A DNA stretch of 64,000 nt from a virus. Lineage: Duplodnaviria; Caudoviricetes. Every line of letters starts with the position of its first letter. Position 1 is the stretch's first letter. The stretch is taken from the IMG/VR virus record IMGVR_UViG_3300042885_001472; one strand, written 5' to 3'. Positions 1 to 55,730 of the stretch are shown in pieces. Made by a program: the position numbers and the translations under genes. The notes under the pieces were generated by a model that was not told where the DNA came from, did not search any database, and was given only the letters and a program-made list of their open reading frames with translations.

Positions 1-118
1 TACCAAAAGACATTGAACCTTTATTTGGACTTTAGGTGATATTTGAACTTAAAAAAATGTCAAAGAGTTATCAATCCAAAGTACTTAATGAAATTAAAAA
101 CGGAATATATCCAAAAAA

Positions 119-328
119 ATGAACAAACTAAATAAAGAACTAATAACACTAACAAAAAGTGATGTAATGTTTCTTATAGCAAGTGCTATGGGTTATGGAT
201 GGAACGCGTCTGGTGGATATCGAGATGGAGAATTTGAAAAAATTCAAAAACGAAAAGAATTAGAAAAAGAAAATTTACTTAAATGGGCAACAACTATAAG
301 TCAAAACAAATATGAACAACCTAGATAA
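119..328 (+). CDS. hypothetical protein (69 aa)
   Basis: ORF whose 3' end overlaps the thyA start; no recognisable motif. Confidence 0.6.
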   Translation: MNKLNKELITLTKSDVMFLIASAMGYGWNASGGYRDGEFEKIQKRKELEKENLLKWATTISQNKYEQPR

Positions 329-1523
329 AAGTTACACAGACCTACTCCAAGACATCTTAGATAATGGAGTAACAAAAGATGACCGTACAGGTACAGGAAC
401 AATCTCAGTATTCGGAAGACAAATACGTCATAAAATGAGTGATGGGTTTCCATTGATTACTACGAAACGAATTCCTTTTAGATTAGTGGTTACTGAACTT
501 TTATGGTTCTTACGTGGTGATACTTCAATAGAGTATCTTTTAAAGAATGACTGCAATATATGGACAGGAGACGCTTATAAGAATTATATATTTAATTCAG
601 AGTGGTTTCCAATTTCAAGTGTAACTGGTGGATTTATTGGAACTAAATCTGATAGTGATGAAATAATGACTCAAGATTTATTCATCAACAAAATCAAAAC
701 AGATGATGAGTTTGCTAAGAAGTGGGGCGATTTAGGTCCTGTGTATGGTAAGCAATGGAGAAGTTGGGGTCCTATGATGAGAGATATTATTCCGTTAGAG
801 ACTGGAGGATACGTCTATAAAGGACCAATAGACCAAATAGCAAACCTAATCAACGACCTTAAAACAAATCCTGATTCAAGACGCTTAATGGTTAACGCTT
901 GGAATGTTGGCGAATTAGACCAAATGGTTCTTCCACCTTGTCATTATGGGTTCCAGCTTTACACAAGAGAGTTAACTGAACGTGAAAGAAATTCACATTC
1001 AATAGCATGTGATGTTAGAGGACAATTTCGTACAATGTTTTCCGAAGAAGAATTAAATGAATTTAATGTACCCAAAAGAGTAATCTCCCTAATGTTTAAT
1101 ATGAGAAGTACCGATGTTGGACTTGGCCTTGGATTCAATTTGGCCTCATACGGATTATTATTGATGATGATTGCTAAACAAGTTAATATGGTTCCTAACG
1201 AACTGATTTATAATGGAGGTGATGTACATTTATATTCAAATCATATTGAACAAGCAAAGGAACAGATTGGTAGAGAAATGAATCACGATGAAAAAGTTAA
1301 ATACGCTCGTTCATTGTATGGGGATAAAGATTGGTGGAATATCAATGATGATAGAGTTTTAGAGATATTACATTCTAACAAAAGAACAAGAGAACCATAT
1401 CCGTTACCAACAGTAAAATTATCTGATAGAGTTGTGAATGATATTTCAGAATATACTTTGGATGATATTGTTTTAGAAAATTATCAATCACATCCATCCA
1501 TAAAAATGCCGTTATCTAATTAA
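312..1523 (+). CDS. thyA: thymidylate synthase (ThyA) with four insertions
   Basis: DRTGTGT, TTKR..ELLWFLRG, LGPVYGKQWR, SRRLMVNAWN, LPPCHY (catalytic Cys), RSxDxxLGxxFN, GDVHLYSNH and C-terminal HPxIKxP motifs. Confidence 0.98.
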   Translation: MNNLDKSYTDLLQDILDNGVTKDDRTGTGTISVFGRQIRHKMSDGFPLITTKRIPFRLVVTELLWFLRGDTSIEYLLKNDCNIWTGDAYKNYIFNSEWFPISSVTGGFIGTKSDSDEIMTQDLFINKIKTDDEFAKKWGDLGPVYGKQWRSWGPMMRDIIPLETGGYVYKGPIDQIANLINDLKTNPDSRRLMVNAWNVGELDQMVLPPCHYGFQLYTRELTERERNSHSIACDVRGQFRTMFSEEELNEFNVPKRVISLMFNMRSTDVGLGLGFNLASYGLLLMMIAKQVNMVPNELIYNGGDVHLYSNHIEQAKEQIGREMNHDEKVKYARSLYGDKDWWNINDDRVLEILHSNKRTREPYPLPTVKLSDRVVNDISEYTLDDIVLENYQSHPSIKMPLSN

Positions 1524-6725: not shown

Positions 6726-6727
6726 TA

Positions 6728-7610: not shown

Positions 7611-7623
7611 ATCATTAACGATA

Positions 7624-9199: not shown

Positions 9200-9216
9200 T
9201 AGGGATATTTATCAAT

Positions 9217-16100: not shown

Positions 16101-16609
16101 TACGTCTTGATATTGAACAACAAAGACTTGAAAAAGCAGCCGCAGCTGAATTAGCTAATACATCCGCGGTAATTAAAAAGACTGGTTTATTTGATAAGAT
16201 AGATAACATTTATGGTGATACTACTGGTGAAGCTGTCACTGAAGGTGGTGGTGATGTAACACCTCCAGCTGGTGGGCCTGAAATGGGTGGTGAAGAAATG
16301 GGTGGTGCACCTCCAGAACCAACAACACCAGAAACAACAGAACCAACACCGCCTACAATGGAGTCTGGGGTTAAAAATTTAGATAAGTTATTATTAGAAA
16401 GAAAAGAATTTTTAATGAAATCGTATGATAGTAAACAAAAAAAACATAAGGCTAATTATATTAACAAATTGATTGAAAGTATTGAAATACGAGAAGAATA
16501 CAAGGTAAATATTAATGAGAGTAAAAATAATGTTTCGGATAGTAACAATAGACACAATAATGATATAACAAATATGGTTGATAATATTAATAATTTATTA
16601 AATAAATAA
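13199..16609 (+). CDS. gp20: portal protein (T4 gp20-like) precursor containing an intein
   Basis: FPEISAALD, KYGDNF, LSEDAMLIYRITRAPERRIF, DFFIPVR, ETLAGA|SNLSEIADIEYLQKKLFAALRVP motifs; about 649 aa after splicing. Confidence 0.95.
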   Translation: MADNKNLTVWQKLGVLFGPDKKPIIGPTKSYSIDSKELLRTKSKEEFSTEKLQKQQNLYLNNQWEKVDNTLYQQAMFYETTRISSYTDFESMEFFPEISAALDILMEESTTQDSKGNILQIHSESDRVKKVLTDLFHNRLDIHTTLPMWTRNVCKYGDNFIYLDIDDENGITNCKQLPNIEIERHEGDVYNSINGVIDINRNKKKGDDLKFVWKNREFEFNSWQIGHFRLLGDDRRLPYGTSVLEKARRIYKQLMLSEDAMLIYRITRAPERRIFKIFVGNIDDKDVEPYVQQIANKFKRSPVVDPKTGQIDLRYNQMANDQDFFIPVRDQAATNPIETLAGACISLDSRIPLLDGRTLTLNEIINEWDNGNRNLWVYSCDPKTGEFTPGIITWAGVTRKNTEVMKITLDNGEEITATPDHKFVHRTNGFVAANELNVGDSLMPFYSKKSIYYKHYDYQQIFDNKTQKWVWVHKEVTKFHKNNLVNETTFLEEYKDQNHSTIHHINFNRFDNSPTNLTFMNSKDHFKLHCKNQQIGSKAFSEKYKNNPNFAKRVRKHLNECNKIFHDKRNSDPEYKEFIRSKQKESINKFFNELSVEELKKWCERINNPITKAKTTKKLLKWCENPDNLKLKGQIISTVKSTPEAKEKMSKMSKSIWVREGYKESVFSKKQTLIFNDKLYNMFINEFEKHLRSDLTLQVLNRSSNFMFEFNSINKDIRSSLTNLNTFTHNHLEKMIKEKGFKNFREWKKEEIIKRGFINLRQWQYYLDKENGKYGSKERGKSINQFYNHKIVKIEYLEQRIDTGTITVDGNEMYHNHHTFALESGIYIKNSNLSEIADIEYLQKKLFAALRVPKPFLGFESAVGDGKNLALQDIRFTRTVNRIQQSMLQELNKIAIIHLFILGLDEELSNFTLTLNNPSTQAEMLRTEQMQVKMQLYKDSVSDAGNGFAAMSMTRAKKEILNFSNDEIRLDIEQQRLEKAAAAELANTSAVIKKTGLFDKIDNIYGDTTGEAVTEGGGDVTPPAGGPEMGGEEMGGAPPEPTTPETTEPTPPTMESGVKNLDKLLLERKEFLMKSYDSKQKKHKANYINKLIESIEIREEYKVNINESKNNVSDSNNRHNNDITNMVDNINNLLNK
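14228..15688 (+). mobile_element. intein (487 aa) with HNH endonuclease domain in the portal gene
   Basis: Starts CISLDS, block B ITATPDHKF, HNH IHHINFNRFDNSPTNL..H..LH, ends GIYIKN|S; removal restores the gp20 motif TLAGA-SNL. Confidence 0.92.
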
Positions 16610-43441: not shown

Positions 43442-45100
43442 ATGAGTAATTTTAGAACACAAGTTAATTTTTCGTCACAGATAAAAGAATATCCAAATAC
43501 TGATGGTACACTTTCAGGTTCTGTTAATGTCCAACAATATACTATTTTAGGGACAGACTATTTAGACCTACCTTTAGGGTTAGATAATACTAGTACCGGT
43601 ATTACTGCGACTTACGGACCAATAATTAATGGGACTTTCACAGGTACTACCGGTAGTACCACTTTTTATTTTAATGATAGTAATATGGATATTGCCGGAC
43701 CTTATTTATCCGCGATAACGGCTTCTAATAGTGGACTAACTCAACATGTTGACGCTTTTAGTATAACTAATACTATAATCGTTGATGGTAATAGTTTTGA
43801 CATCTATTATAGTGGTGTGTCTTTTGATATGACACCAACAAACCTAGATGAATATTCTCCAGGTGAGTTTTCAGGGGGAACTTTCACTAATGTATTAAAC
43901 TACCTTTCCGGAACAACATACCCTTGGTGGTTTTTAAAGTCTGGTTCAACAACTTGGAATGAAGTTAAGGGTAGAACCCAAACAGATCGTTTAACCATTA
44001 TTGATGGGGCGAATACCGATTACGTCTTAATATCATCTAACTCAAATGGTGACGCTATTTGGCGACCATTGGACTTTGTAATTTCTGGGGGTTGTTTATC
44101 GGATGTTTGTATTAAAGGAATTTTATCTTTGATAAGAGATTTATATATAAAAGGTTTAACATTTGGTACTGGTGGTAGTGATGTCGGCTCAACTGGTACA
44201 ACATATGTGACAAATACAGCTGGAGGTAAGGATGTTTTATTTTATAACTCCACTGGTATTAGAAATACTGGTTTTGGTAGTGAAGTGTTAAGTGCTAATA
44301 CTATAGGTTATTCCAATACTGGTCTTGGTACTTACGCACTTAAAAGTAATAGTACTGGTATTGATAATACTGCCATTGGTACTTATTCATTAGAATCAAA
44401 CACTATAAATGGTGGTAATACGGCCATTGGTTCTGGTTCTTTACAAAGTAATACTATTGGTTATGGTAATACTGGAATAGGTTATAATTCTATACCTAGT
44501 AATATTGATGGTTATGTTAATACTGGGTTAGGGATATATGCGTTACATGATAATGTTAGTGGTTATGAAAATGTTTCTGCTGGTCACTACTCTTTATTCC
44601 AAAATACTACTGGTTATCAAAATACTGGTATAGGGAATCAATCTATAACTTCTAATACCACTGGTAACATAAATACTGGTATTGGTTATGGTGCTTTAGG
44701 TGGTAATACAATAGGTTTAGGTAACACATCAATAGGTTGGGGTTCTGGACTTAGTAACACTACAGGTAATTATAACACTTTTTTAGGTTTAGGTAGTGAT
44801 TGTATCACCACCAACTTAACAAACGCTACCGCTGTAGGTTATAACGCCATTGTTGATCAAAACGATTCAATGGTATTAGGTAATGGTGTTATAAATGTTG
44901 GTATAGGTATAAGTACACCAACCTCAACATTACATTTAATAGGTCTTAGTGGTTTTAGTCAATTAAGATTGGAAATTCAATATACACCAACTGGTACTAC
45001 AGATAGTAATGGTAGTCAAGGTGATACAGCTTGGGATGATAGTTACATATACATCAAAACATCAGTTGGCTGGAAAAGATCTGGTTTATCAACATTCTAA
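43442..45100 (+). CDS. fibre/adhesin-like virion protein with NTxxG (YadA-head-like) repeats
   Basis: About 14-aa repeats NTGxG.xL..NT.G; NVGIG..P...LH; C-terminal GSQGDTAWDDSYIY. Confidence 0.8.
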   Translation: MSNFRTQVNFSSQIKEYPNTDGTLSGSVNVQQYTILGTDYLDLPLGLDNTSTGITATYGPIINGTFTGTTGSTTFYFNDSNMDIAGPYLSAITASNSGLTQHVDAFSITNTIIVDGNSFDIYYSGVSFDMTPTNLDEYSPGEFSGGTFTNVLNYLSGTTYPWWFLKSGSTTWNEVKGRTQTDRLTIIDGANTDYVLISSNSNGDAIWRPLDFVISGGCLSDVCIKGILSLIRDLYIKGLTFGTGGSDVGSTGTTYVTNTAGGKDVLFYNSTGIRNTGFGSEVLSANTIGYSNTGLGTYALKSNSTGIDNTAIGTYSLESNTINGGNTAIGSGSLQSNTIGYGNTGIGYNSIPSNIDGYVNTGLGIYALHDNVSGYENVSAGHYSLFQNTTGYQNTGIGNQSITSNTTGNINTGIGYGALGGNTIGLGNTSIGWGSGLSNTTGNYNTFLGLGSDCITTNLTNATAVGYNAIVDQNDSMVLGNGVINVGIGISTPTSTLHLIGLSGFSQLRLEIQYTPTGTTDSNGSQGDTAWDDSYIYIKTSVGWKRSGLSTF

Positions 45101-45123
45101 TAATTAAAAATTAAATTACAAAT

Positions 45124-45369
45124 ATGAAACTAAATCCACTTGAAATAATATTAACAGAAGATGATATACAAAAATTAATATCATCAACATTTGATAGTGT
45201 TAATTTAATCAATAATTTAAATAACATCCCCAATAAAACAGAAAATGATGTTAATAGGATTGTTGATAATAAAAAACATTTAGAAATTATATCAAAAAAA
45301 GATTGGTTTATCGCCAATTTAACACCAAGTCAAAAATCTATAGTTGAATCAATTATTTATTCTATTTAA
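45124..45369 (+). CDS. small protein following the fibre (possible fibre chaperone)
   Basis: Position after a fibre gene; NKKHLEII.KKDW. Confidence 0.5.
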   Translation: MKLNPLEIILTEDDIQKLISSTFDSVNLINNLNNIPNKTENDVNRIVDNKKHLEIISKKDWFIANLTPSQKSIVESIIYSI

Positions 45370-45393
45370 CCATTAAGTTAATATTTATATGGT

Positions 45394-46992
45394 ATGAGTA
45401 TAGTTAACAATTATGCGTTTAAAAATTTAAGGTTAAGATTAACTAATGTTAATTATTGGGATTTAGTATTAAGTTCTGACATGAGAGGGTATGATCATAC
45501 TACACTATACTGTAATAATATAATTTCAGGTGATACACTTTTAGTTTATTTTGATTTTAATGATAGTGATTGTGTTAGTGGTCGCACAATTTATAGTTTA
45601 ACCACATGGAAAGACGCCATTTTACCTAAATCTGGCTTGACATTATGTGATATTGGTTTAACTGGTGTTGATAATGGGTTTGTACCAAATTTAACCGGTG
45701 AAACTTTATACATCACTAGTGGAGATCCTAGATTCTATATGACCCAAGTAACGGGTAGCACATATGAATATCCAATTATATTTACTGGAGATTGTTCTGG
45801 TAATTACAGTCAGTTTAATGGTGGGTTTTATCAAGGGTTTTATAAACTTGAAAATTATCCTATTAAAAAAATAAGTGATAATAAATTTTTAGATTGTATT
45901 CCTCACGATAATGATTGTTTAGATAATGTTTGTACTAATGGTTGTAGTTGTCCACCACCAGAATTACCAAATCCAGTAATTGATTATCAAGTTTTACCTA
46001 ATAAATTTAGTGTTGGTTGGACATCAGAATTTTGGTTAAAAAAAGATTCTAACCCTATAATACCTAACAATATATTAAATAGTATTTACCCTAATAATAA
46101 CGGATTTTTTCATACTATGGGGTTAAGAGCTGAAAATAAATTTTGGGATTTTTTCTCCGGAGAAACTGGTCATACAACTTGTTTAGATAGTGGACATACA
46201 TTAAACCCACCTATTTTACATACAGACGCTATGAGTGGGATGAATCCATTTTTATATTACACTTTAAAAAATTGTGATAATCAAACTTGTGATACTTGTC
46301 AATGTTCTGTTTGTGAATGTACAGATACCGGTTCATATCCATATTATGGTGAAAAGGACTATATCACTGATGTTGTAGACAATATAATAGGGTTTAGAAT
46401 TAGAGATGATGGTAGTATAGGATATCGTAAATTATCTTTTAGTGGTCAATGTTCCGGTTCAACTATTGAATGTTGTAGAACAAGTGGTGGTACTTATGTT
46501 ACCGGTTATACTGTTGAAGAATCATATTCAATGTCAGGTATGGTCTCATCAGATAAATGGGTTCATGTTGTAGTTAGATATGACGCGGATTATATGATAC
46601 CGGAAGATAAATTAGATTGCCCTTGTAGTCCATTAAATCCACAATATTGTTCAAGACCTGGTCAACTATCATTTTATATTGATGGTTATTTGAAATATAG
46701 AGTTAGAGTTGTTAAAGAAATGATACCTAAAGGTTTGGATGATTGGCCAGAAAAACAATTAGGTGTTCCATACACTATGAGTTTAGGTGGTGGTACACAA
46801 GGTTTAATTGAAACAAGAACATTTGGTGGTCCTGACCCAAAAGATTATGATTTACCAATACAAGAAAATTTCGCTGGGAGTTTTATGGGGGGGATTTCTA
46901 AGTTTAGATTTTACTCTGAGCCTTTAGATGTCACCCAATTAAGATGTAATTATAAAACGGAAAAAAATAAATATAACACTAAAATTTGTTAA
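45394..46992 (+). CDS. Cys-rich virion protein with C-terminal LamG/ConA-like segment
   Basis: 24 Cys; KWVHVVVRY, LSFYIDG, GGISKFRFYSEPL. Confidence 0.7.
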   Translation: MSIVNNYAFKNLRLRLTNVNYWDLVLSSDMRGYDHTTLYCNNIISGDTLLVYFDFNDSDCVSGRTIYSLTTWKDAILPKSGLTLCDIGLTGVDNGFVPNLTGETLYITSGDPRFYMTQVTGSTYEYPIIFTGDCSGNYSQFNGGFYQGFYKLENYPIKKISDNKFLDCIPHDNDCLDNVCTNGCSCPPPELPNPVIDYQVLPNKFSVGWTSEFWLKKDSNPIIPNNILNSIYPNNNGFFHTMGLRAENKFWDFFSGETGHTTCLDSGHTLNPPILHTDAMSGMNPFLYYTLKNCDNQTCDTCQCSVCECTDTGSYPYYGEKDYITDVVDNIIGFRIRDDGSIGYRKLSFSGQCSGSTIECCRTSGGTYVTGYTVEESYSMSGMVSSDKWVHVVVRYDADYMIPEDKLDCPCSPLNPQYCSRPGQLSFYIDGYLKYRVRVVKEMIPKGLDDWPEKQLGVPYTMSLGGGTQGLIETRTFGGPDPKDYDLPIQENFAGSFMGGISKFRFYSEPLDVTQLRCNYKTEKNKYNTKIC

Positions 46993-47005
46993 ATAAAGAA
47001 AAAAA

Positions 47006-47524
47006 ATGGTAACAAAATACATAATAAATAATTTACCTAGTCAAACGATTACTGGTGATTTAAATATTTCTGAAAAAACAGTGGTAACAAGTTTCCAAAT
47101 GACCTCTGGAGCTACAGATGGTTATGTATTAACTTCTGATGTTGATGGTAATGGAACTTGGCAAGTATTAGCCGGAGGTGGTAATACTATAGATGAGTTT
47201 TATATAGAACCATCAACAACAAGTTTTACTTGGGATATTAGTGGTAATAGTACTAATTATAAAATTATTTTAACTGGTAATACAACAATAGATTTAAATA
47301 ATGTTAGAAATGGTGATTATGGTACATTAATCATTCAACAAGATGTTGTTGGTGGTTATGGAATAACACTTGGTAATTTAAATGGTAGTTCTACAAACCA
47401 TTTAGTTGTAGGTAATGGTTCTGGTACTTTAGGTTTGACTGGAACTCCTAATTCAATTGATATACTATCGTTTGTTTATGATGGTACTAATGTTTATTGG
47501 AATAATGGTTTAAATTATACATAA
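47006..47524 (+). CDS. short fibre-like virion protein
   Basis: GYVLTSD.DGNGTWQ linker; LTGNTTI..GTLIIQQD..IDILSFVYDG tip domain. Confidence 0.65.
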   Translation: MVTKYIINNLPSQTITGDLNISEKTVVTSFQMTSGATDGYVLTSDVDGNGTWQVLAGGGNTIDEFYIEPSTTSFTWDISGNSTNYKIILTGNTTIDLNNVRNGDYGTLIIQQDVVGGYGITLGNLNGSSTNHLVVGNGSGTLGLTGTPNSIDILSFVYDGTNVYWNNGLNYT

Positions 47525-47525
47525 T

Positions 47526-48392
47526 ATGAGTAATAGATATTTTTTTAATTCATTATTATCGTTAGATAGTGTTGGTATTAATCCATTGGATTTAAATCCA
47601 TATACATATTTTCAAACTTATAACCCATTATTTTTAACACCAACAACCCCTAACATTGGTGATTCAATAACAGAAATTTATAAGTACAATGATAGTTTAT
47701 ATATCGCTTCAGGGGATACTGGGTGTGTAGGTACTTGGGAAAATTTGGATGGTAAGAATATGATTTATATACCAGGAATTGATGGTGGTTGTTGGCCACC
47801 TCCTTGTTCTGGTACTTGTTCAACCTACTATACAACCAACCAAAATATTAGTTTTATGTCAATGAGTGGTTATGAGTATACAGTATATTTTGTTGGCAAA
47901 CCTTTATCTGGTAATTCTTTTTCAGATGGTCATATATTTAGTGACATTGAAACATCCGTATTATTTGGTGGTAGATACGTATCTATGTATGTTAAAGATA
48001 ATAAAGATATTTATTTTAGGTCTAAACGTTTAGGTATTAATTCTGATGTCATTGACATACCATTTGAAATAAATATTTCTGAAAATGATTTGGAAACTAA
48101 AAATACTAGAGTTTTTTCACTTAGAACTAAAGATCCATTAAATACCACATCGATAGCAGCAACTTCTTATATTAATGGGGTAGAAACAACCGCTATCACA
48201 CAAACAAATGTGAGTAATGTGACAACAGAAAGTTCTATACCATTTTTAATTGGCGCTGGAGCAACAGATGGACCTTCTTATGAAATGTATCAAGGATATT
48301 TTGGAGAATTAATAATTTTTAACACTTATCACGATTTAACAACCCATAATAGTATCATAGATTTCTTAAAAAATAGATGGGGAATTAATTAA
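47526..48392 (+). CDS. LamG/ConA-like lectin-fold virion protein
   Basis: YTVYFV, SYINGV, FLIGA, YFGELIIFN..H. Confidence 0.65.
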   Translation: MSNRYFFNSLLSLDSVGINPLDLNPYTYFQTYNPLFLTPTTPNIGDSITEIYKYNDSLYIASGDTGCVGTWENLDGKNMIYIPGIDGGCWPPPCSGTCSTYYTTNQNISFMSMSGYEYTVYFVGKPLSGNSFSDGHIFSDIETSVLFGGRYVSMYVKDNKDIYFRSKRLGINSDVIDIPFEINISENDLETKNTRVFSLRTKDPLNTTSIAATSYINGVETTAITQTNVSNVTTESSIPFLIGAGATDGPSYEMYQGYFGELIIFNTYHDLTTHNSIIDFLKNRWGIN

Positions 48393-48486
48393 AACTCTTT
48401 AGATTAAATAGGTGGAAAAATAAATTTCACTAATACTATTCTTTAAATATTTATTAATAAATAAATTATAGAATAATAATAAAAAT

Positions 48487-49821
48487 ATGTCATTACCATC
48501 GTGTTTAACGTTAAGAACAGTAAAAGGTTCTGTATTATCTTGGGTTGAGTTAGATAATAACTTCATATGTCTAAATAATTCAATAAATAATGTTGCTAGT
48601 TTAATCCATAATGGTAATATGTGGCACATCCCCTCTGGGAATACTGTCACAATAGAGACCGATTATCAATATTTTATATATGGTGATATGATTATTGAAG
48701 GGACATTACAATTAAGTGGTGGAAGTCAATTAGTTGTATTAAATGGGGATCTAATATTTAGTGGTGGTTCTGTAGTTGGTGATGGTGACATATATAACAT
48801 ATCTTTACCGGAATTTGATACAAAAATCAGTGGTTTAACTTATAGTGGTGACACTTTAACTATATATCAGAATGATGGATCAACATATAGTACAACAATA
48901 GTTAGTTCAACAGATATTACGGTGACTGGTGGTACATACAACCCCACAACCGGTACAGCGACATTTTATGATAATAATGGGGGTAATTTTGATGTTAACG
49001 GATTTTTAACAGGTTATACAGATGTGAAAGTATCTGGGTTAACATATAGTGGTAATACTTTAACTTTAACCCAAACTGATGGTAGTAATTTTAATGTCAC
49101 TATAAATTCTAGTACACCATTTACTGGTAATACATCTGGTGATTGTATTACAGATTTATATGTGACAAATTTAAATTCTTGTTCTCCATTACATATCCAA
49201 CCGGTTAACACTGGGGATGTTTATATATCTGAAAATGGTGGTAATGTCGGTATAGGTAATACATCACCCACAAAAAAATTACACGTAAGTGGTGACGCTT
49301 TATTTTCAAGTTCAACTAACAATGTTGTAACAATCATTGGTTCTGGTTCTTCAATGTCATCACCCCTATTTAACGTTCAAGGATCTTCCGGTCAATTATT
49401 CAGTGTATCTGATAGTTTGATTGGTTCATTATTCTCAGTAAATGACATATCTGGTTTACCAGTAATTGAAGCGTTTTCAGATAATACAATATTAATGGGT
49501 GATTTTAATTCACCCTCTTTAAACACCACTAAAAAAGTTGTGGTGAACTCTGGTGTTACATCAATTTATTCAATCCCTTCAAGTGGTTATACAGGAGCTT
49601 TTTATGATTATACAGTATTAAGTGACCTTGGAGCTAGAAGTGGTAATATAATGTCAATATGGAGTGGTACAAGTATTCAATATAGTGAGACCTCAACAAC
49701 AAGTATTGGTGATACTAGTGGAATAATATTTTCAGTTTCATTATCCGGTAATTCTACGATGTTATCAACATCGGCTAATACCAATTCTTGGACTGTTAAA
49801 ACAATTGTAAGATCAATATAA
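48487..49821 (+). CDS. fibre-like virion protein
   Basis: Duplicated SGLTYSG.TLT..Q.DGS unit; GNVGIG..P.KKLHV. Confidence 0.7.
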   Translation: MSLPSCLTLRTVKGSVLSWVELDNNFICLNNSINNVASLIHNGNMWHIPSGNTVTIETDYQYFIYGDMIIEGTLQLSGGSQLVVLNGDLIFSGGSVVGDGDIYNISLPEFDTKISGLTYSGDTLTIYQNDGSTYSTTIVSSTDITVTGGTYNPTTGTATFYDNNGGNFDVNGFLTGYTDVKVSGLTYSGNTLTLTQTDGSNFNVTINSSTPFTGNTSGDCITDLYVTNLNSCSPLHIQPVNTGDVYISENGGNVGIGNTSPTKKLHVSGDALFSSSTNNVVTIIGSGSSMSSPLFNVQGSSGQLFSVSDSLIGSLFSVNDISGLPVIEAFSDNTILMGDFNSPSLNTTKKVVVNSGVTSIYSIPSSGYTGAFYDYTVLSDLGARSGNIMSIWSGTSIQYSETSTTSIGDTSGIIFSVSLSGNSTMLSTSANTNSWTVKTIVRSI

Positions 49822-49822
49822 G

Positions 49823-50491
49823 ATGAGTTTTCATTTTTCACTAAAAATAGTAACAGATGGATTAGTTCTTTATTTAGATGGAGCTAACCCTAAATCATAT
49901 GTGAGTGGTTCTACTATTTGGAATGATATTAGTAAAAATAGTAATAATGGTACATTAACCAATGGACCAACATTTGATACTAGTAATAGGGGATGTATTA
50001 TATTTGATGGTGTTAATGATTATGTGGGGGTAAATAATTTTATAGGAAATCTTAACACATTTTCTGTTAATCATTTTATTTACTTAAACACATCACAAAA
50101 TGGTAAAACAATTTTTAGTAACTTTGGTAATGATAATAATGGATGGGTTACTGGGATTAGTGATAGTCAAACTAATGTTATTAAGTTTTATTTAGGTAAT
50201 ATTGTTCATTTGTATTCTAATACAGTATTACAAAACTTAATATGGTATAGTATTACAATTACTTATAATAATGGGAACCCTAAAATATATATTAATGGTG
50301 TTGAAGACAATTCTAGTTCTACTGTATTGACACCATCTTCTAGTTATTTTGGGAATGATATCGGTAGACTTGGTGATGGTTCACAACACTTTAATGGGGG
50401 AATATCTAACATTCAAGTCTATAATCGTGCTCTAACACCCTCAGAAGTACTTCAAAATTATAATAGTTTAAAAGGTAGATTTGGTTTATAA
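49823..50491 (+). CDS. LamG (laminin G_3) domain protein, paralog 1
   Basis: DGLVLYLDGAN, FDGVNDY, IYING, QVYNRALT..EVLQNY. Confidence 0.88.
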   Translation: MSFHFSLKIVTDGLVLYLDGANPKSYVSGSTIWNDISKNSNNGTLTNGPTFDTSNRGCIIFDGVNDYVGVNNFIGNLNTFSVNHFIYLNTSQNGKTIFSNFGNDNNGWVTGISDSQTNVIKFYLGNIVHLYSNTVLQNLIWYSITITYNNGNPKIYINGVEDNSSSTVLTPSSSYFGNDIGRLGDGSQHFNGGISNIQVYNRALTPSEVLQNYNSLKGRFGL

Positions 50492-50595
50492 TGTCAGGAA
50501 AAGTAAGTTCAAAAATAGTAACAGATAGTTTAGTTTTAAATTTAGATGGGGCTAACCCTAAATCATATGTGAGTGGTTCTACCATTTGGAATGAT
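49873..50595 (+). repeat. 55 bp direct repeat between LamG paralogs (53/55 identical)
   Basis: tttagatgg(a/g)gctaaccctaaatcatatgtgagtggttctac(t/c)atttggaatgat at 49873-49927 and 50541-50595. Confidence 0.9.
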
Positions 50596-51207
50596 TTAAC
50601 ATACTATAAAAACGATGGGGTTTTAACTAATAATCCAACATATAATTCAAATAATGGTGGAAGTATTGAATTTGATGGTACTAACGATTATGTTAATTGT
50701 GGAAATTCAAATTCTTTAAAATTTTTTGATGGTGATTCATTTACCATATGTTCGTGGGTTAAACCTAATCCTACAATGTCTGCTGGGGTTATTGTTCAAC
50801 ATGGGGGTGAACCAAATAGTGCCACTGGGTTTGCTCTTTATTTAGCATTTGGATATGTTGAGTTCGCTAAATCTAATGTCGCAAACACTGGACAAAATAT
50901 TACAACAACACCTTTTAATAATAATGAATGGAATCATATTTGTTGTTCAATAAAATATTCTGGTTTATCTGGTCAAATTAAATTCTATGTAAATGGTATT
51001 TTAAAATCAACATTTAATGGTTGGAGTGCTAACCCAAATATATCTGACTACACTAGACCATTAAATGTAGGTAGGTCTGAAACTGACGCCTTTTTCAATA
51101 ACCTTCCATTTAAAGGGAATATATCCAACGTGTCAATATACAATAGAATATTATCATCTCAAGAAGTTCTTCAAAATTATAACGCTTTAAAAAATAGATT
51201 TATTTAA
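50491..51207 (+). CDS. LamG domain protein, paralog 2
   Basis: LDGANPKSY, FDGTNDY, FTICSWV, WNHI, FYVNG, IYNRILS..EVLQNY. Confidence 0.88.
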   Translation: MSGKVSSKIVTDSLVLNLDGANPKSYVSGSTIWNDLTYYKNDGVLTNNPTYNSNNGGSIEFDGTNDYVNCGNSNSLKFFDGDSFTICSWVKPNPTMSAGVIVQHGGEPNSATGFALYLAFGYVEFAKSNVANTGQNITTTPFNNNEWNHICCSIKYSGLSGQIKFYVNGILKSTFNGWSANPNISDYTRPLNVGRSETDAFFNNLPFKGNISNVSIYNRILSSQEVLQNYNALKNRFI

Positions 51208-51210
51208 AAC

Positions 51211-51483
51211 ATGGAAACACAAGATTACGAAAACAGAAAATTTATGATATTCAATATGTCAGAATTACCAATGATTGATTTTACACAAGTATGTGAAACA
51301 TCTCAAGATACATTAAGGTTTTCCGTTGACGGAACTAAAACATTTGTTAAATGGGATTCAATAGAAATTCCCTCATCAGTAGATTCCCTAACAACAAAAG
51401 AGGGATTGTACACATATGAAGAAATGTTAACAATATTATCCACACCAGAATGGACTAATCCAAATCCATTTCCAATTATATGA
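51211..51483 (+). CDS. conserved small phage protein
   Basis: IDFTQVCETS.DTLR.SVDGTKTFVKW; embedded in the LamG array. Confidence 0.7.
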   Translation: METQDYENRKFMIFNMSELPMIDFTQVCETSQDTLRFSVDGTKTFVKWDSIEIPSSVDSLTTKEGLYTYEEMLTILSTPEWTNPNPFPII

Positions 51484-52217
51484 GTACAATAGGTAATTGG
51501 CGAGGTCCAAATATAATTAAAGATGGTTTATTTTTATATTTAAATCCAAATTCACCTAATTCATTTTATGATACATCAAGTACTATAATAAAAGATATTA
51601 GTGGTAATGGTAATAATGGTACATTAATAAACGGACCAACATATAATTCAAATAATGGTGGTAGTATAGTATTAGATGGTACTAACGATTACCTTAATAC
51701 TAACATAGGAATTAAACCAACCTCAACCACAATAGAAGTTGTTTGTAGTATAATAAGTAATACTTCAATTAAAACTGGTGGTAATACAGTGGCTCAATAT
51801 ATTGTCTTTAGACAAAATACAAGAACTTCTAATTTTGAGGCTGTTGTTCTTAATTATATACAATCTGGGTTAACAGGGTATTTTGAAGGTACTATGTCTT
51901 CCTCTGGTGGGTTAGCTAAACAAGTGTCAACCCCATTAATAAATCTTAATCAAATTTATTCACTCACAGCTACTTACGATTCAAATAACATTACACTATA
52001 TCTAAACGGACAATTTGTATCACAAACATCAACCGGTTTTCCAATTGATTATAATTTAGTTCACACATATAAATTGGGTAGAGCTGACGCTATAGGTCAA
52101 ACATTTGATGGTTATCTTAACGGAAAAATATATGATGTAAGATTTTACGATAGGACACTTACATCTTCAGAAATCCTTCAAAACTATAATTCAACAAAAT
52201 CAAGATTCGGATTATAA
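51480..52217 (+). CDS. LamG domain protein, paralog 3
   Basis: DGLFLYL, NNGTLINGPT, LDGTNDY, LYLNG, FYDRTLT..EILQNY. Confidence 0.88.
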   Translation: MSTIGNWRGPNIIKDGLFLYLNPNSPNSFYDTSSTIIKDISGNGNNGTLINGPTYNSNNGGSIVLDGTNDYLNTNIGIKPTSTTIEVVCSIISNTSIKTGGNTVAQYIVFRQNTRTSNFEAVVLNYIQSGLTGYFEGTMSSSGGLAKQVSTPLINLNQIYSLTATYDSNNITLYLNGQFVSQTSTGFPIDYNLVHTYKLGRADAIGQTFDGYLNGKIYDVRFYDRTLTSSEILQNYNSTKSRFGL

Positions 52218-52274: not shown

Positions 52275-55127
52275 ATGGGAAATGAATTTGTAATTAAAAA
52301 TGGTTTTATATCACAAGGAACATCTTATATAACTAATGAGGGTAAACTTGGTATTGGTACTCCATTACCCTCTGAAAAATTAGAAGTTAGTGGTAAAACA
52401 AAAACAACTAATTTACAAGTAACATATGGTTCTAGTGAAGGTTATATATTAACCGCTTTAGATAATCAAGGTAATGTAGGTTGGTTACCATTTAATAATG
52501 TTAATATCACTGAATTAGCTCCAGTAATATCAATAGTATCCACACCAATAAGTGGTAGTACTGATGGTGATAGATATTTGATAAGTGGGGGTACTGGTAT
52601 ATGGAGTGGAAAAACTAATTATATTGCCGAGTGGTTAAATCCTGATTGGGTATATACCACTGGTACTACAGATAACACAGTTTTTGTTACCGATACATTA
52701 ACAACTTATAGATATGATGGTACTAATTGGGTACCATATAGGGGTACTGTTATTTTACAAAATGGTAATAAATTAAATACCTCTATTAATATAGGTAGTA
52801 ACGATAATCAAGATATTAATTTTAGAGTTAGTGGTAGTACTAAAATGACTATCACAAAAAGTGGTAATGTTGGTATTGGTACTACTACGCCAGTAAGTTT
52901 ATTATCTGTTTATCATACTCGTACATCAACACCGATGGGTTCGACAATTGATGCAATTAATATGGGTGGACAATACTCAAATACTGCTGGACAGAACCCA
53001 AAAATTATAATATATGACGATGGTGGTTCTGTCATGGGATTTGGTGGTTCTGCGGGTCAATTAGATTACATAACCCCAAGCAGTTCTCACAGTCACGTAT
53101 TTTACACTGGTACAGTAAAGAGAGTTGTTTTAGGAGGAGATGGAAATAATGGTTTTAACATAGCATCACCAACAGCAAAAATTCATGTTGTTGGTAGTAG
53201 TTCCACATCTTCAAATTATGCTTTAAAAGTAGAAAATAGCGCAAATGCTAATTTATTTAATGTTAGAAATGATGGTAATTCTACGTTAAATGGATTAAAT
53301 ATTGGAAAAGGTCCATCACAAATAGTTAGTAATGTTGTATTTGGTGTCAATGCTTTAAGTGCTAACACGACGGGGGATAACAATTTTGCTTTTGGGTTTG
53401 AAACTTTATTAAAAAACATAAGTGGTGACAACAACGTAGGGATAGGACATAATGTATTAAGACAAAATATTTTAGGGAATGATAATGTCGGTATTGGTTC
53501 TCAAACCTTATTGGTTTCTTTAGGACATCAAAATACTGCGATAGGTGCATATTCTTTGATGGATTTAACTTCTGGTACACAAAACACCGCTGTTGGTAAT
53601 CAATCTATGCTTGTAATGACTACTGGAACTTTAAACACTTCTTTAGGGTATTATACGTTACGTTCTAATATATCAGGACAAAGAAATGTGGCGGTTGGAT
53701 GGAACGCTTTAAACTCAGCTTTAAATAGTTTTAACGTTGGATTAGGATATAGAGCTGGTGCGAATATTACGATAGGTGAATATAATACAGCCATTGGTAC
53801 AGATACTGCACCAACATTAACATCTGGAAATTATAACACTATTATTGGAAGAGATACAGGAAGAGGTATAACTACAGGTTCTAGAAATACAATCATAGGT
53901 GCATCTACATTGGGCTTGGACTCAGGTTTAAATGATACTATCATATTAGCAAAAGGTGATGGTGTTATTAGATATATTTGTACTTCATCAGGTAATACAG
54001 GGATTGGTACGATATTACCAACAACTAAACTAGATATTCTTTCGGATACAACAAATGATTCGGGTTTACGGCTTAGAAACTTAACAAGTGCTTCACCATC
54101 TACTAACGGTAAACCAATTGGCGTTGATGCTAACGGTAAAGTGGTTGCTATTGAAAATACTTGGCAATCAATTAATGCAGATACCGAAATTTACACAGAA
54201 TCAAATACAGATGTAGTGGCAACAGGCATGACTATTACACCACCCGCAGGAACTTATAAAGTAGATTTTAATGGAGAATACCAAGTGATAGCGGGTAACG
54301 TAGTTGCTTTGGCTCAATTAGATTTACAGACGTTATATTTATACTTAAATAATTTAACACCAACATCATCTCATGGTTTAACTTTTGGTAGTGGAGAAAT
54401 TTTAGGACCAGGAGTTTACACCGTTGCAGGAGCAGGTTCAGTTGCTGGTACATTAACTTTAAACGGTGGCGCCAATGATTTGTTTGTAATAAGAGTAGCA
54501 GGAGCAATTAACACAGGTGCTGCAACTACTATAAGTCTTACAGGAGGAGCAACATCCGCAAATGTATTTTTTGTTGCAACAGGTGGCGCAATTGGTATTG
54601 GAGCAAATAACAATATAGTTGGTAATTATATATCTAACGGTTCAGCTGCTGCATTGGGTGCTAATTGTGTTTTTAATGGCAGATTACTTACTACAGGTGG
54701 AGCATTAGCATTTGAATCAGGAGTACTTACTAAACCAACAACGGCAAGTGTTGTTAATATGGGTATTTTAGAAACTTTTCTTTGTTATACAAACGCTGGA
54801 AATGTTAGCAATACAGCGTTGGCTCAAATCACAGGTGATTTAGGAACATCATCTGGGGCAGTTTCAATATTTGTAAGCAGCACATTTAATGGAAACATTT
54901 ATGACAACTCTCAACAGTTTGGTAACAGTAGTAATTTTAGTTTATACGAAGGAGCAACTATGGTTTCAAATTCAAACAGACTTAAAGAAATAGATGCTTA
55001 CACCAGAGATATTATACTAAGCGGCATTGCAACGGTAGATGGCACACAGGCTATAACTGTTAGGTGGCGCACAAATATTGGAAGAGTATATTTAAATAAC
55101 AGAATATTAACAATAGTAAAATTATAA
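52275..55127 (+). CDS. long fibre protein: DUF2793-like domain, NTAxG repeats, C1q-like tip with inserted ice-binding (DUF3494)-like domain
   Basis: GDRYLI..TGIWSG..IAEW (DUF2793-like); GNVGIG linkers; NTAxG repeats; LGPGVY..GTLTL..LFVIRV..GATSANVFF..GRLLT. Confidence 0.85.
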   Translation: MGNEFVIKNGFISQGTSYITNEGKLGIGTPLPSEKLEVSGKTKTTNLQVTYGSSEGYILTALDNQGNVGWLPFNNVNITELAPVISIVSTPISGSTDGDRYLISGGTGIWSGKTNYIAEWLNPDWVYTTGTTDNTVFVTDTLTTYRYDGTNWVPYRGTVILQNGNKLNTSINIGSNDNQDINFRVSGSTKMTITKSGNVGIGTTTPVSLLSVYHTRTSTPMGSTIDAINMGGQYSNTAGQNPKIIIYDDGGSVMGFGGSAGQLDYITPSSSHSHVFYTGTVKRVVLGGDGNNGFNIASPTAKIHVVGSSSTSSNYALKVENSANANLFNVRNDGNSTLNGLNIGKGPSQIVSNVVFGVNALSANTTGDNNFAFGFETLLKNISGDNNVGIGHNVLRQNILGNDNVGIGSQTLLVSLGHQNTAIGAYSLMDLTSGTQNTAVGNQSMLVMTTGTLNTSLGYYTLRSNISGQRNVAVGWNALNSALNSFNVGLGYRAGANITIGEYNTAIGTDTAPTLTSGNYNTIIGRDTGRGITTGSRNTIIGASTLGLDSGLNDTIILAKGDGVIRYICTSSGNTGIGTILPTTKLDILSDTTNDSGLRLRNLTSASPSTNGKPIGVDANGKVVAIENTWQSINADTEIYTESNTDVVATGMTITPPAGTYKVDFNGEYQVIAGNVVALAQLDLQTLYLYLNNLTPTSSHGLTFGSGEILGPGVYTVAGAGSVAGTLTLNGGANDLFVIRVAGAINTGAATTISLTGGATSANVFFVATGGAIGIGANNNIVGNYISNGSAAALGANCVFNGRLLTTGGALAFESGVLTKPTTASVVNMGILETFLCYTNAGNVSNTALAQITGDLGTSSGAVSIFVSSTFNGNIYDNSQQFGNSSNFSLYEGATMVSNSNRLKEIDAYTRDIILSGIATVDGTQAITVRWRTNIGRVYLNNRILTIVKL
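54294..54905 (+). other. DUF3494 ice-binding-protein-like domain, apparently circularly permuted
   Basis: Helix ALAQLDLQTLY, then GEILGPGVY, GTLTLNG, LFVIRV, LTGGATSANVFF, GRLLTTGGAL; the normally N-terminal segment VNMG..F..NVSNT...ITGDLG follows at 54750. Confidence 0.82.
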
Positions 55128-55131
55128 AATC

Positions 55132-55278
55132 ATGGAACCAATTACTTTAGAACAACTATTTATTTTAGTAGAATCATTAAAAAATGATATTAATGAAATT
55201 AAAACAGAAATTAAAACAACACAAGAACTAATATCTAAAATTCAAACACGTCACTTTAATAAAATTATAAACCCATGA
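55132..55278 (+). CDS. small coiled-coil protein (48 aa), absent from the ORF track
   Basis: MEPITLEQLFILVESLKNDINEIKTEIKTTQELISKIQTRHFNKIINP*; ATGA overlap with 55275. Confidence 0.65.
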   Translation: MEPITLEQLFILVESLKNDINEIKTEIKTTQELISKIQTRHFNKIINP

Positions 55279-55730
55279 AAATCATTTCAAAAAACACACT
55301 AAACACTCAATTTAATACAACGTTGGCAAATATCACTCAACAAGGTGTAGTTGATGTTAATAATTTATATTCTAATTTATTAGCTCAACCATTAGTTGGT
55401 GGCGCAGTTTCAAATGCTGGCACAAATATTATTGTTGGAGATATTGGCACAAATGCAGGAGCAATTACAGGTTTTGAAAGTGTTACTTTGAGTGGTGTAA
55501 TTTACCCACCAAATCAAGGCTCATCAAACGTTCAAGTTTCAATTTATGTTGATGGAGTAATAGTACCAACATCTACAAGAGAGCACACAAATGTTATCAC
55601 TAAAGAAGATATAGCAATTGCAGATGTGGTTACATTAGCCGTTGGTCAGGTAGTAACAGCAAAGGTGTTAAACTCCATAGGTATTTCAAGATTTTACAAT
55701 AGAATTTTAACTATGAATTTAATAAACTAA
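55275..55730 (+). CDS. truncated paralog of the fibre tip (C1q-like plus partial DUF3494)
   Basis: Aligns to fibre residues ~665-700 and ~835-950: GGAVSNAGTNIIVGDIGTNAGAITGF; C-terminal NRILT. Confidence 0.75.
   Translation: MKIISKNTLNTQFNTTLANITQQGVVDVNNLYSNLLAQPLVGGAVSNAGTNIIVGDIGTNAGAITGFESVTLSGVIYPPNQGSSNVQVSIYVDGVIVPTSTREHTNVITKEDIAIADVVTLAVGQVVTAKVLNSIGISRFYNRILTMNLIN

What the first reader, a model, noticed from the sequence alone, without database searches (positions are those of the whole stretch)
54159..55127. Ice-binding-protein (DUF3494) domain at the tip of a phage fibre
Residues ~674-877 of the 950-aa fibre match the DUF3494 pattern: helix A..DL..LY, then (L)GPGVY, GTLTL.G, LFVIRV, L.GGA.SANVFF, G.....G.YI, GRLLT..GA. 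The domain is inserted into a C1q/TNF-like head (TGMTITPPAGTYKV.F before; FSLY..IILSGIATV..ITVRW..NRILT after), so a trimer would display three copies. DUF3494 proteins bind ice and are used by cold-habitat bacteria, algae and fungi (established). Inference: virions that adhere to ice, resist freeze damage, or concentrate at ice surfaces where hosts live. I know of no characterised phage structural protein doing this; a search is needed to confirm novelty.
Basis: partly seen in the sequence, partly recalled or inferred. Interest (0 to 1): 0.9.

Follow-up and report, generated by a model that had tools for sequence, protein, structure and literature searches.

The report
Ice-binding-type domain on phage fibre tip
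An uncultured lake phage ends one of its tail fibres in a three-fold head that displays a rearranged copy of the protein fold that cold-loving microbes use to grip ice; the head probably sticks the virus to a surface, and nobody has tested whether that surface is the host cell or ice.

Summary
ORF 52275-55127 (950 aa) lies in the structural module of a phage genome. It has fibre-type N-terminal and shaft regions. Its last ~320 aa match Pfam PF11999/DUF3494 (E 9e-20, 71.7 bits; cut-off 28.7) and the solved antifreeze protein IBPv (5UYT, E 7e-34).

An AlphaFold2 model (pLDDT 88.7) shows two folds. One is the IBP-1 solenoid (Z 20.9). The other is a TNF/C1q-like jelly roll (Z 16.0) whose aligned range spans the solenoid. 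It is also circularly permuted.

The same head is a mobile cassette. It occurs in several unrelated phage contigs. It also occurs on secreted, sometimes collagen-stalked, proteins of Bacteroidota, including a glacier Flavobacterium.

Ice binding itself is unproven. The face equivalent to IBPv's ice-binding site keeps small residues, and relatives lean towards cold habitats. Against this, a distal fibre tip is normally a host-receptor binder, and DUF3494 proteins also occur in warm habitats. My odds: host envelope 0.42, ice 0.35.

Viral PF11999 genes were reported before, as auxiliary metabolic genes. This scan has also noted DUF3494 in phage structural proteins on other DNA.

The parts
52275..55127 (+). 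Tail-fibre gene, 950 aa (P0001), no signal peptide
   Evidence: ORF list and translation. PHROG tail spike / virion structural / tail fiber matches. Lies on the same strand after virion structural genes 43442-52217.
52536..52733 (+). DUF2793 domain (aa 88-153) in the N-terminal, virion-proximal part
   Evidence: Pfam PF10983, E 2.6e-07, 30.8 bits (cut-off 27). phrog_7049 tail fiber and phrog_5363 match the same residues.
53082..54014 (+). Repetitive shaft (aa ~270-580) of tail-spike/fibre type
   Evidence: phrog_6002, phrog_4636 (tail spike) and phrog_23837, E 1e-18 to 2e-29. tblastn finds fibre/spike genes of Roseobacter, Pelagibacter, cyanophage and SPO1-like phages. 35% identical to the shaft of ORF 43442-45100.
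54162..54293 (+). TNF/C1q-like jelly roll, N-terminal half (aa 630-673; strands A to C)
   Evidence: AF2 strands at model residues 31-36, 40-42, 48-55 and 60-73. VIA-align gives Z 16.0 to PLTL lectin 9IB7, with an aligned range of model 30..351.
54300..54353 (+). Long alpha-helix of the DUF3494 fold (aa 676-693)
   Evidence: AF2 helix at model 77-94. It aligns to the helix of 5UYT and of single-domain ice-binding proteins.
54381..54740 (+). Beta-solenoid coils of DUF3494 (aa ~703-822). Residues equivalent to IBPv ice-binding row 1 are A744, A772, A791, A810; row 2 are N746, G774, A793, A812.
   Evidence: PF11999 profile positions 55-203. Z 20.9, rmsd 1.5 A over 153 aa to 5UYT_A. Rows mapped through the phmmer alignment and PMC5673226.
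54741..54923 (+). Permuted 'initial coil' of DUF3494 (aa ~823-883), placed after the final coil. N843 and S845 sit at the row positions.
   Evidence: Query aa 829-866 aligns to residues 6-43 of 5UYT, which is the start of a canonical domain. The paralogous segment in ORF 55275 matches PF11999 profile positions 4-61. Canonical topology is taken from PMC11645318.
54924..55127 (+). TNF/C1q-like jelly roll, C-terminal half (aa 884-950; strands D to H) and stop codon
   Evidence: AF2 strands at model 285-293, 303-307, 311-322, 328-334 and 338-350. VIA-align to TNF-like lectins, BclA, BxpB and C1q.
55275..55730 (+). Companion ORF (151 aa): an internally deleted copy of a second, stand-alone head protein
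   Evidence: 31% identity to P0001 aa 822-947. 65% identical to the ends of an intact 355-aa head protein at L009:7010-8077, which has PF11999 at E 2e-27.

Best explanation
The stretch encodes the distal, ligand-binding head of one of several tail fibres of a large uncultured freshwater phage, probably of Bacteroidota.

Shown:
- The head is a TNF/C1q-like jelly roll.
- A circularly permuted DUF3494 (IBP-1 fold) solenoid is nested between its fourth and fifth strands.
- The whole head is a cassette shared with unrelated phages and with secreted Bacteroidota surface proteins.

Inferred:
- The jelly roll trimerises at the end of the fibre shaft.
- The insertion lies in the C-D loop, which in TNF-like folds is at the end away from the termini. 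Three solenoids would then project from the far end of the fibre.
- The head works as an adhesin during adsorption.

I commit, by a small margin, to the ligand being on the host envelope. On this view the variable jelly-roll frame, lectin-like, sets specificity, and the conserved solenoid adds a flat contact surface. Ice affinity may well survive as a side property: I put about 0.55 on measurable ice binding in vitro.
For: - Fibre identity and phage context.
- Fold and nesting.
- TNF/C1q-like heads are common tips of phage fibres and knobs. Examples are the Sf6 and HS1 needle knobs, the phi812 knob, and C1q-domain proteins and a tail fibre receptor-binding protein in BFVD.
- The best structural matches to the frame are the glycan-binding trimeric lectins PLTL and BC2L-C-Nt, at Z 15-16. 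Their sugar pockets lie between protomers at the end away from the termini (PMC12914763).
- The frame is the fastest-diverging part of the head: 51% identity within the clade and 16% between clades. The solenoid values are 68% and 44%. Faster divergence fits a specificity-determining part.
- The cassette sits on different fibre bodies in at least five kinds of phage contig.
- Contigs of relatives break away from this fibre at nt 52869-52892, as expected for tip exchange.
Against: - No host, receptor or virion data exist.
- The flat face equivalent to IBPv's ice-binding site carries only Ala, Gly, Ser and Asn. It has no aromatic or charged residues, which is typical of ice-binding sites and unusual for glycan sites (PMC5673226).
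- That face is conserved between freshwater and marine/brine phage clades, which must have different hosts.
- The same head on secreted bacterial proteins is not easily explained by a phage-receptor function.
- The phage has several other fibre-like and LamG lectin-like proteins that could do host recognition.
Confidence: 0.42

Rival explanations
1. Ice adhesin. The three solenoids bind ice through the flat Ala-lined face, as in IBPv. Virions then stick to lake ice, are taken into it or protected from recrystallisation damage, and meet ice-associated Bacteroidota hosts there. Host recognition is left to the jelly-roll frame or to the other fibres.
For: - phmmer E 7e-34 and Z 20.9 to IBPv, whose thermal hysteresis and ice-binding site were shown by mutagenesis (PMC5673226).
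- Row-1 positions are Ala in four of five coils. In the marine group row 1 is nearly all Ala (a few Thr, Val, Pro or Gly) and row 2 is mostly Thr/Ser (with Gly, Asp), the pattern described for IBPv.
- The solenoid is the most conserved segment across clades.
- Relatives occur in a Tibetan-glacier psychrophile with three tandem copies and 8 PF11999 hits, in a sea-ice MAG, and in brine metagenomes.
- PF11999 is absent from 14 control genomes.
- Viral PF11999 homologues were reported to peak at -1 to +3 C in polar oceans (PMC11515562).
- A stalk with a distal ice-binding domain is the design of proposed bacterial ice adhesins, noted in PMC10796529 and PMC9957290.
Against: - No activity data exist.
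- The ice-binding site of DUF3494 proteins is poorly conserved, so it cannot be read from sequence (PMC5673226).
- The Ala positions lie on turns and may be structural.
- In this phage's own clade row 2 has lost most hydroxyl residues (N, G, A, A, S).
- DUF3494 proteins occur in tropics and hot springs (PMC7783341).
- The head also occurs in an activated-sludge Saprospiraceae MAG that has five PF11999 genes.
- The sampling season and ice cover of the source lake are unknown because the records are coded.
Confidence: 0.35
2. General environmental adhesin. The head binds some other ordered or polymeric surface, such as exopolymer, algal or particle surfaces, or mineral. It holds virions where hosts live, like Ig-like capsid decorations that hold phages in mucus.
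For: - The same head is used by free-living Bacteroidota on secreted and collagen-stalked proteins and in tandem arrays of up to 12 paralogues. This suits a general adhesin repertoire.
- Raymond proposes that DUF3494 proteins bind various repeating substrates (PMC7783341).
- Tapirin, a cellulose-binding beta-helix of a thermophile, is a structural neighbour at Z 12.0.
Against: No ligand other than ice has been shown for any DUF3494 protein in the papers read. The flat face lacks the aromatic residues usual for polysaccharide binding.
Confidence: 0.13
3. Auxiliary metabolic gene. A soluble ice-binding protein is made during infection to protect the host from freezing, as proposed for PF11999 genes on Arctic viral contigs.
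For: This interpretation was published for other viral PF11999 genes (PMC11515562).
Against: - The domain is the C-terminal third of a 950-aa protein whose N-terminus and shaft are of fibre type.
- The protein has no signal peptide, unlike the cellular homologues.
- The gene lies in the structural module.
Confidence: 0.03
4. The solenoid has no ligand of its own. It is a rigid spacer or folding/stability element of the head.
For: The solenoid is highly conserved. The companion gene, and so presumably a head, can exist without it.
Against: A 210-aa nested domain kept in about 55 of the best 150 cluster representatives, always at the extreme C-terminus, is costly for a mere spacer. The solenoid-less companion looks like a decayed remnant rather than a working variant.
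Confidence: 0.05

Closest known systems
IBPv, the two-domain DUF3494 antifreeze protein of Flavobacteriaceae isolate 3519-10 (PDB 5UYT; PMC5673226)
   Same: It is the best sequence match (E 7e-34, about 30% identity) and the best structural match (Z 20.9, rmsd 1.5 A over 153 aa). It has the same triangular solenoid with a helix alongside. The row of small residues at the ice-binding site is kept (A744, A772, A791, A810).
   Different: IBPv is a secreted soluble protein with two canonical domains in tandem. Here there is one domain, circularly permuted so that the initial coil follows the final coil, nested inside another domain and fixed to a phage fibre. The phage segment aligns from the helix of IBPv domain A into the first coil of domain B, which is the arrangement expected if the permutation arose from a tandem pair. 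No activity has been measured here.
TNF-like trimeric lectins PLTL (PDB 9IB6/9IB7; PMC12914763) and BC2L-C N-terminal domain (2WQ4); also C1q-like heads BclA and BxpB/ExsF
   Same: The frame of the head superposes at Z 15-16, rmsd 1.7-1.9 A, over 113-116 of about 133 residues. These proteins are three-fold heads that end stalks or bind glycans between protomers.
   Different: Sequence identity is only 10-13%. None of them carries a nested domain. The oligomeric state and any sugar pocket were not tested here.
Phage fibre and needle tips with TNF/C1q-like knobs (Sf6 and HS1 tail needle knobs, phi812 central spike knob, C1q-domain proteins of uncultured Caudovirales in BFVD)
   Same: They have a similar jelly-roll knob fold (weaker matches: Foldseek E about 3e-2 to 6e-2 for the Sf6/HS1 knobs, VIA Z 12.0 for the phi812 knob) at the distal end of a tail appendage, presumed or shown to contact the cell.
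   Different: None of these hits contains a DUF3494 insert. In BFVD the only named DUF3494 protein is from a giant virus (Hyperionvirus), not a phage.
Proposed bacterial ice adhesins: SfIBP_1 of Shewanella frigidimarina (PDB 6BG8) and collagen- or Ig-stalked PF11999 proteins from Arctic metagenomes (PMC9957290)
   Same: The design principle is shared: a long stalk carries a DUF3494 domain at its far end. The identical head sits on a 1344-aa collagen-repeat protein in the glacier isolate Flavobacterium sp. LB1P62.
   Different: The stalk here is a phage fibre and the anchor is a virion, not a cell. SfIBP_1 has a canonical, un-nested domain.
Viral 'ice-binding-like' auxiliary metabolic genes on Arctic viral contigs (Rahlff et al. 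2024, PMC11515562)
   Same: They are PF11999 genes on phage contigs, linked to Flavobacteriales.
   Different: There they were read as host-protecting metabolic genes, and no structural context was described. Here the domain is part of a fibre.

Membership tests
DUF3494 / Pfam PF11999 (IBP-1 fold ice-binding proteins) | Match to the family HMM above the gathering score | tested here: met
   71.7 bits (cut-off 28.7), E 9e-20. The C-terminal 311 aa alone give 81.2 bits.
DUF3494 / Pfam PF11999 (IBP-1 fold ice-binding proteins) | Right-handed triangular beta-solenoid with a long alpha-helix packed alongside | tested here: met
   AF2 model with pLDDT 88.7. VIA-align gives Z 16.6-20.9 and rmsd 1.1-1.7 A to 25 solved ice-binding protein entries. 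This rests on a predicted, not a solved, structure.
DUF3494 / Pfam PF11999 (IBP-1 fold ice-binding proteins) | [quoted passage not shown] | tested here: not met
   The helix and coils (profile positions 55-203) come first, and the initial-coil segment (profile about 4-61) follows at aa ~829-885. The same 3D arrangement is plausible, because the canonical final and initial coils are neighbours. This makes it a permuted variant.
DUF3494 / Pfam PF11999 (IBP-1 fold ice-binding proteins) | Flat face with aligned small or hydroxyl residues at about 4.8 A spacing (the ice-binding site) | tested here: inconclusive
   By alignment to IBPv, row 1 is A744, A772, A791, A810, N843 and row 2 is N746, G774, A793, A812, S845.
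DUF3494 / Pfam PF11999 (IBP-1 fold ice-binding proteins) | Ice binding (thermal hysteresis, recrystallisation inhibition, ice shaping) | not testable with these tools
   Needs recombinant protein.
TNF/C1q-like jelly-roll heads (TNF-like lectins; Pfam PF26696 PTL_trimer) | Greek-key jelly roll of TNF topology | tested here: met
   Z 16.0, rmsd 1.7 A, 113 of 133 residues of PLTL. Z 12-15.5 to BC2L-C-Nt, BxpB, BclA, C1q and EDA-A1. The aligned model range is 27-351.
TNF/C1q-like jelly-roll heads (TNF-like lectins; Pfam PF26696 PTL_trimer) | Homotrimer about a three-fold axis | not testable with these tools
   Only monomer prediction is offered. Trimerisation is inferred from the fold, from phage fibre symmetry, and from collagen triple-helix stalks on cellular homologues.
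TNF/C1q-like jelly-roll heads (TNF-like lectins; Pfam PF26696 PTL_trimer) | Sequence match to PF26696 | tested here: inconclusive
   My Pfam copy returned no such family for P0001 or for the cellular homologues. The ESM Atlas lists PF26696 in 100% of the nearest structural cluster of Bacteroidota proteins, TM 0.75.
Phage tail fibre / receptor-binding protein | Fibre-type N-terminal and shaft regions, encoded in the virion structural module | tested here: met
   PHROG tail spike, tail fiber and virion structural matches. tblastn finds annotated fibres and spikes of 97 phage records. The neighbouring genes are structural.
Phage tail fibre / receptor-binding protein | Present in virions and binds a host receptor | not testable with these tools
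   The phage is uncultured and the host is unknown.
Viral auxiliary metabolic gene for cryoprotection (soluble ice-binding protein) | Stand-alone, soluble or secreted ice-binding protein not built into the particle | tested here: not met
   The domain is fused to 620 aa of fibre and there is no signal peptide.

The most novel reading that the evidence does not exclude
Phage particles carry trimeric ice-binding heads on their tail fibres and so adhere to, or are taken up into, lake and sea ice. This would be a virion-level adaptation to the cryosphere, for overwintering in ice or for hunting ice-attached Bacteroidota. It would be built from a cassette that the hosts themselves use as an ice adhesin.
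Probability: 0.35. Interest if true: 0.85.

Novelty: new variant of a known kind. Interest (0 to 1): 0.6.

Why it matters
If the head binds ice, it would be the first structural phage protein known to target a physical phase rather than a cell. It would give a mechanism for how viruses persist in ice and are released from it in seasonally frozen lakes and sea ice.

If it binds the host instead, it shows that the DUF3494 fold has ligands other than ice. That matters because PF11999 hits are widely used as markers of cold adaptation in metagenomes, including viral 'cryoprotection' genes.

Either way, the nested and permuted architecture is a compact natural scaffold that displays three solenoids on a stable trimer, which is of interest for ice-binding protein engineering. 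The test is cheap: a 320-aa recombinant head and standard ice assays.

Tried and rejected
- tblastn of the head (aa 600-950) against 50,697 deposited phage genomes found nothing at E <= 0.01. Cultured phages therefore give no comparison.
- No whole genome is held for the window.
- Literature searches for DUF3494 with phage, and for ice-binding with tail fiber, found no description of such a fibre. Two apparent hits were only reference-list mentions.
- A search for the IMG sample numbers in papers, to learn habitats, found nothing. Run and sample names are coded, so season and ice cover of the source lake could not be established.
- Model coordinates are not exposed. I could not measure the flatness or exposure of the putative binding face, or confirm by geometry that the permuted coil stacks on the final coil. 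The apex position of the insert is inferred from TNF-fold topology only.
- I rejected the idea that Pfam's alignment of aa 621-673 to the first part of the profile marks a canonical initial coil. The model places those residues in jelly-roll strands, and the true initial-coil segment lies at aa 829-885.
- The raised G+C of 0.34-0.38 over nt 52600-55000 could mark foreign origin but may simply reflect Gly/Ala-rich coding.
- I did not use the second structure-prediction job. A monomer model of the companion ORF would not have changed the verdict.
- No tRNA genes were found to help with host assignment.
Full report
**What is there**

The window is phage DNA with about 29% G+C. It encodes a large terminase, a portal, a major head protein, thymidylate synthase and a DNA polymerase. 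No tRNA gene was found and no whole genome is held for it.

ORF 52275-55127 encodes a 950-aa protein, P0001. It follows a run of same-strand structural genes. These include another fibre-like protein (43442-45100) and three LamG-type paralogues (49823-52217).

P0001 has no signal peptide. Its regions are:
- a DUF2793 domain at aa 88-153 (Pfam E 2.6e-07);
- tail-spike / virion-structural repeats at aa ~270-580 (PHROG E 1e-18 to 2e-29);
- a C-terminal PF11999 'Ice_binding' match at E 9e-20, 71.7 bits, against a cut-off of 28.7.

tblastn of the whole protein finds annotated fibres and spikes in 97 phage records, always through the shaft. The last 351 aa find nothing in 50,697 deposited phage genomes.

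**Fold**

I aligned the last 351 aa with 24 homologues (alignment A1). The AlphaFold2 model has mean pLDDT 88.7 and pTM 0.68. VIA-align shows two separate folds.

- Model residues 74-271 match the antifreeze protein IBPv (5UYT_A) at Z 20.9, rmsd 1.5 A over 153 residues.
- Residues 74-224 match two dozen single-domain DUF3494 structures at Z 16.6-18.8, from their helix to their C-terminus.
- The TNF-like lectins PLTL and BC2L-C-Nt (Z 15-16, rmsd 1.7-1.9 A, 113-116 of about 133 residues) align over model residues 27-351. So do BxpB/ExsF, BclA, C1q domains, EDA-A1 and the phage phi812 knob. That range lies on both sides of the solenoid.

Foldseek agrees.

Four strands precede the insert and five follow it. 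With TNF strand naming, and with the termini and the B-C loop at one end (PMC12914763), the insert falls in the C-D connection. That loop lies at the end far from the fibre shaft. This last step is inference, because no coordinates or multimer model were available.

**Circular permutation**

In canonical DUF3494 proteins an initial coil leads into the helix, and the remaining coils stack back so that the final coil lies beside the initial one (PMC11645318). Here the helix and coils come first (profile positions 55-203 at aa 669-814). The initial-coil segment follows: aa 829-866 align to residues 6-43 of 5UYT.

The paralogous segment of the downstream ORF matches profile positions 4-61. The phage segment aligns continuously from the helix of IBPv domain A into the first coil of domain B. 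A permutation derived from a tandem pair would look like this.

**A mobile cassette**

The nearest proteins, at 53-63% identity, lie on phage-like contigs of 34-121 kb. These contigs are of different kinds:
- one has phage GroEL/GroES and a lysozyme;
- one has an integrase;
- one is a 34-kb contig with a tape-measure-like gene.

A second group, at 35-44% identity and about 650 aa, lies on other viral contigs. One of these is 99 kb and carries a DNA ligase and a fatty-acid desaturase.

A profile search of 1.84 billion cluster representatives gives 872 hits at E <= 1e-30. About 55 of the best 150 are single matches to the whole head, always at the extreme C-terminus, in proteins of 348-1731 aa.

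The complete head also occurs in Bacteroidota genomes: Flavobacterium, Saprospiraceae, Chitinophagaceae, Crocinitomicaceae and Parvicellaceae. There the genes have signal peptides and ordinary cellular neighbours.
- In the glacier isolate Flavobacterium sp. LB1P62 (PMC12799291), three head genes stand in tandem. One is a 1344-aa collagen-repeat protein (PF01391, E 1e-112).
- One Flavobacteriaceae genome has 12 such genes in one array.

In the population data, contigs of relatives share the first ~200 aa of this fibre and break away at nt 52869-52892, which is the GNVGIG motif. The window's own sequence recurs without a single difference in runs dated 2016 to 2024.

**Does it bind ice?**

I mapped IBPv's mutagenesis-defined site (PMC5673226) through the phmmer alignment, using an offset of SEQRES index + 21 checked on both domain-A cysteines. 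This gives row 1 as A744, A772, A791, A810, N843 and row 2 as N746, G774, A793, A812, S845. In the marine ~650-aa group, row 1 is nearly all Ala (with a few Thr, Val, Pro or Gly) and row 2 is mostly Thr/Ser, with Gly and Asp at two positions. The face is thus small and uncharged like a known ice-binding site, and unlike a usual sugar site.

The solenoid is the most conserved part of the head: 68% identity within the clade and 44% between clades. The C-terminal half of the jelly roll gives 51% and 16%.

Relatives lean towards cold places:
- a glacier isolate and a sea-ice MAG;
- 'brine' and marine metagenomes in nine studies for one viral relative.

PF11999 is absent from all 14 control genomes.

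Against the ice reading:
- the ice-binding site of this family is known to be poorly conserved, and the Ala positions lie on turns (PMC5673226);
- DUF3494 proteins occur in tropics and hot springs (PMC7783341);
- an activated-sludge Saprospiraceae MAG has the head and five PF11999 genes;
- the source is only labelled freshwater or lake water;
- a distal fibre head is, by long experience with phages, normally the host-receptor binder;
- the frame's best structural relatives are glycan lectins.

I therefore rate a host-envelope ligand at 0.42, ice at 0.35, another surface at 0.13, a ligand-less spacer at 0.05 and a soluble auxiliary gene at 0.03. Separately, I give about 0.55 to measurable ice affinity in vitro.

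**Comparison with what is known**

The domain meets the sequence and fold criteria of DUF3494 but not its canonical chain order. It is a permuted, nested variant. The frame meets the TNF/C1q-like fold criterion. Trimer state and PF26696 membership were not testable here, although the ESM Atlas lists PF26696 with PF11999 in the nearest Bacteroidota cluster.

On prior art:
- Three PF11999 genes on Arctic viral contigs were read as host-cryoprotection genes (PMC11515562).
- Collagen plus PF11999 architectures were noted in Arctic metagenomes (PMC9957290).
- A 57-member all-viral PF11999 cluster exists in the Atlas.
- BFVD holds a giant-virus DUF3494 protein but no phage one.
- I found no paper that describes the domain as part of a phage fibre, its nesting in a TNF-like head, or its permutation.

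This scan has noted DUF3494 domains in phage structural proteins on other DNA several times, with similar follow-up verdicts. I treated those notes as leads only.

**Verdict**

This is a real and well-defined feature. I class it as a new variant of known kinds (a phage fibre head and a DUF3494 domain). The test of the striking reading is cheap and decisive.

Noticed in passing
window 55275-55730 (+); L009:7010-8077: The 151-aa ORF just after the fibre gene is an internally deleted copy of a second, stand-alone 355-aa head protein (jelly roll plus DUF3494). That protein is intact in a related 34-kb phage contig. The window's copy keeps only the initial-coil segment and the last jelly-roll strands, so it is probably a decaying remnant of a tip exchange.
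   Followed up: yes
window 52869-52892: Contigs of related phages in the same lake runs match the first ~200 aa of the fibre and then run on unlike sequence at the GNVGIG motif. G+C rises from about 0.29 to 0.34-0.38 from here to the end of the gene. This suggests a recombination joint for swapping the distal two-thirds of the fibre.
   Followed up: partly
window 49823-52217 (+), also 47526-48392: Three adjacent paralogues of 222-245 aa match phrog_24074 and phrog_8510. The one scanned against Pfam (49823-50491) matches Laminin_G_3 (concanavalin-like lectin), E 1.8e-17; a fourth, weaker relative lies upstream. They could be alternative receptor-binding proteins.
   Followed up: partly
window 13199-16609 (+): The portal gene encodes 1136 aa. 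The portal profile matches mainly aa 41-343 (best of two matched stretches), and an HNH endonuclease profile matches aa 491-534. This may be an intein or a homing-endonuclease insertion.
   Followed up: no
window 20850-22664 (+) and 312-1523 (+): The major head protein (604 aa) matches its profile mainly in aa 350-581 (best of two matched stretches), so it has a long N-terminal extension. The thymidylate synthase (403 aa) is about 100 aa longer than the matched span of its profile.
   Followed up: no
L037 (Flavobacteriaceae bacterium GE-10, contig C23 about 41-62 kb of its genome): A tandem array of 12 genes of about 430-550 aa, each with a PF11999 match; the seven of them that lie inside locus L037 also match the head's C-terminal jelly-roll segment. 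Smaller arrays occur in L024, L027, L030 and L035. This looks like a diversifying surface-protein repertoire.
   Followed up: partly
L001:6582-9427: A related phage contig encodes an 859-aa Cpn60 (GroEL-like, unusually long) and a Cpn10 less than 1 kb upstream of its DUF3494 fibre gene (one small opposite-strand ORF lies between).
   Followed up: no
L005:18445-19146 and 6238-9386: The 99-kb viral contig with a ~650-aa DUF3494 head protein also carries a fatty-acid desaturase, a sugar epimerase, an aminotransferase and a Clp protease. The desaturase is a gene type linked to cold adaptation of membranes.
   Followed up: no
window 37340-38869 (-): A family-2 glycosyltransferase (Glyco_tranf_2_5, E 7e-32) lies inside the long minus-strand block that another note describes as a glycan-building locus.
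   Followed up: partly
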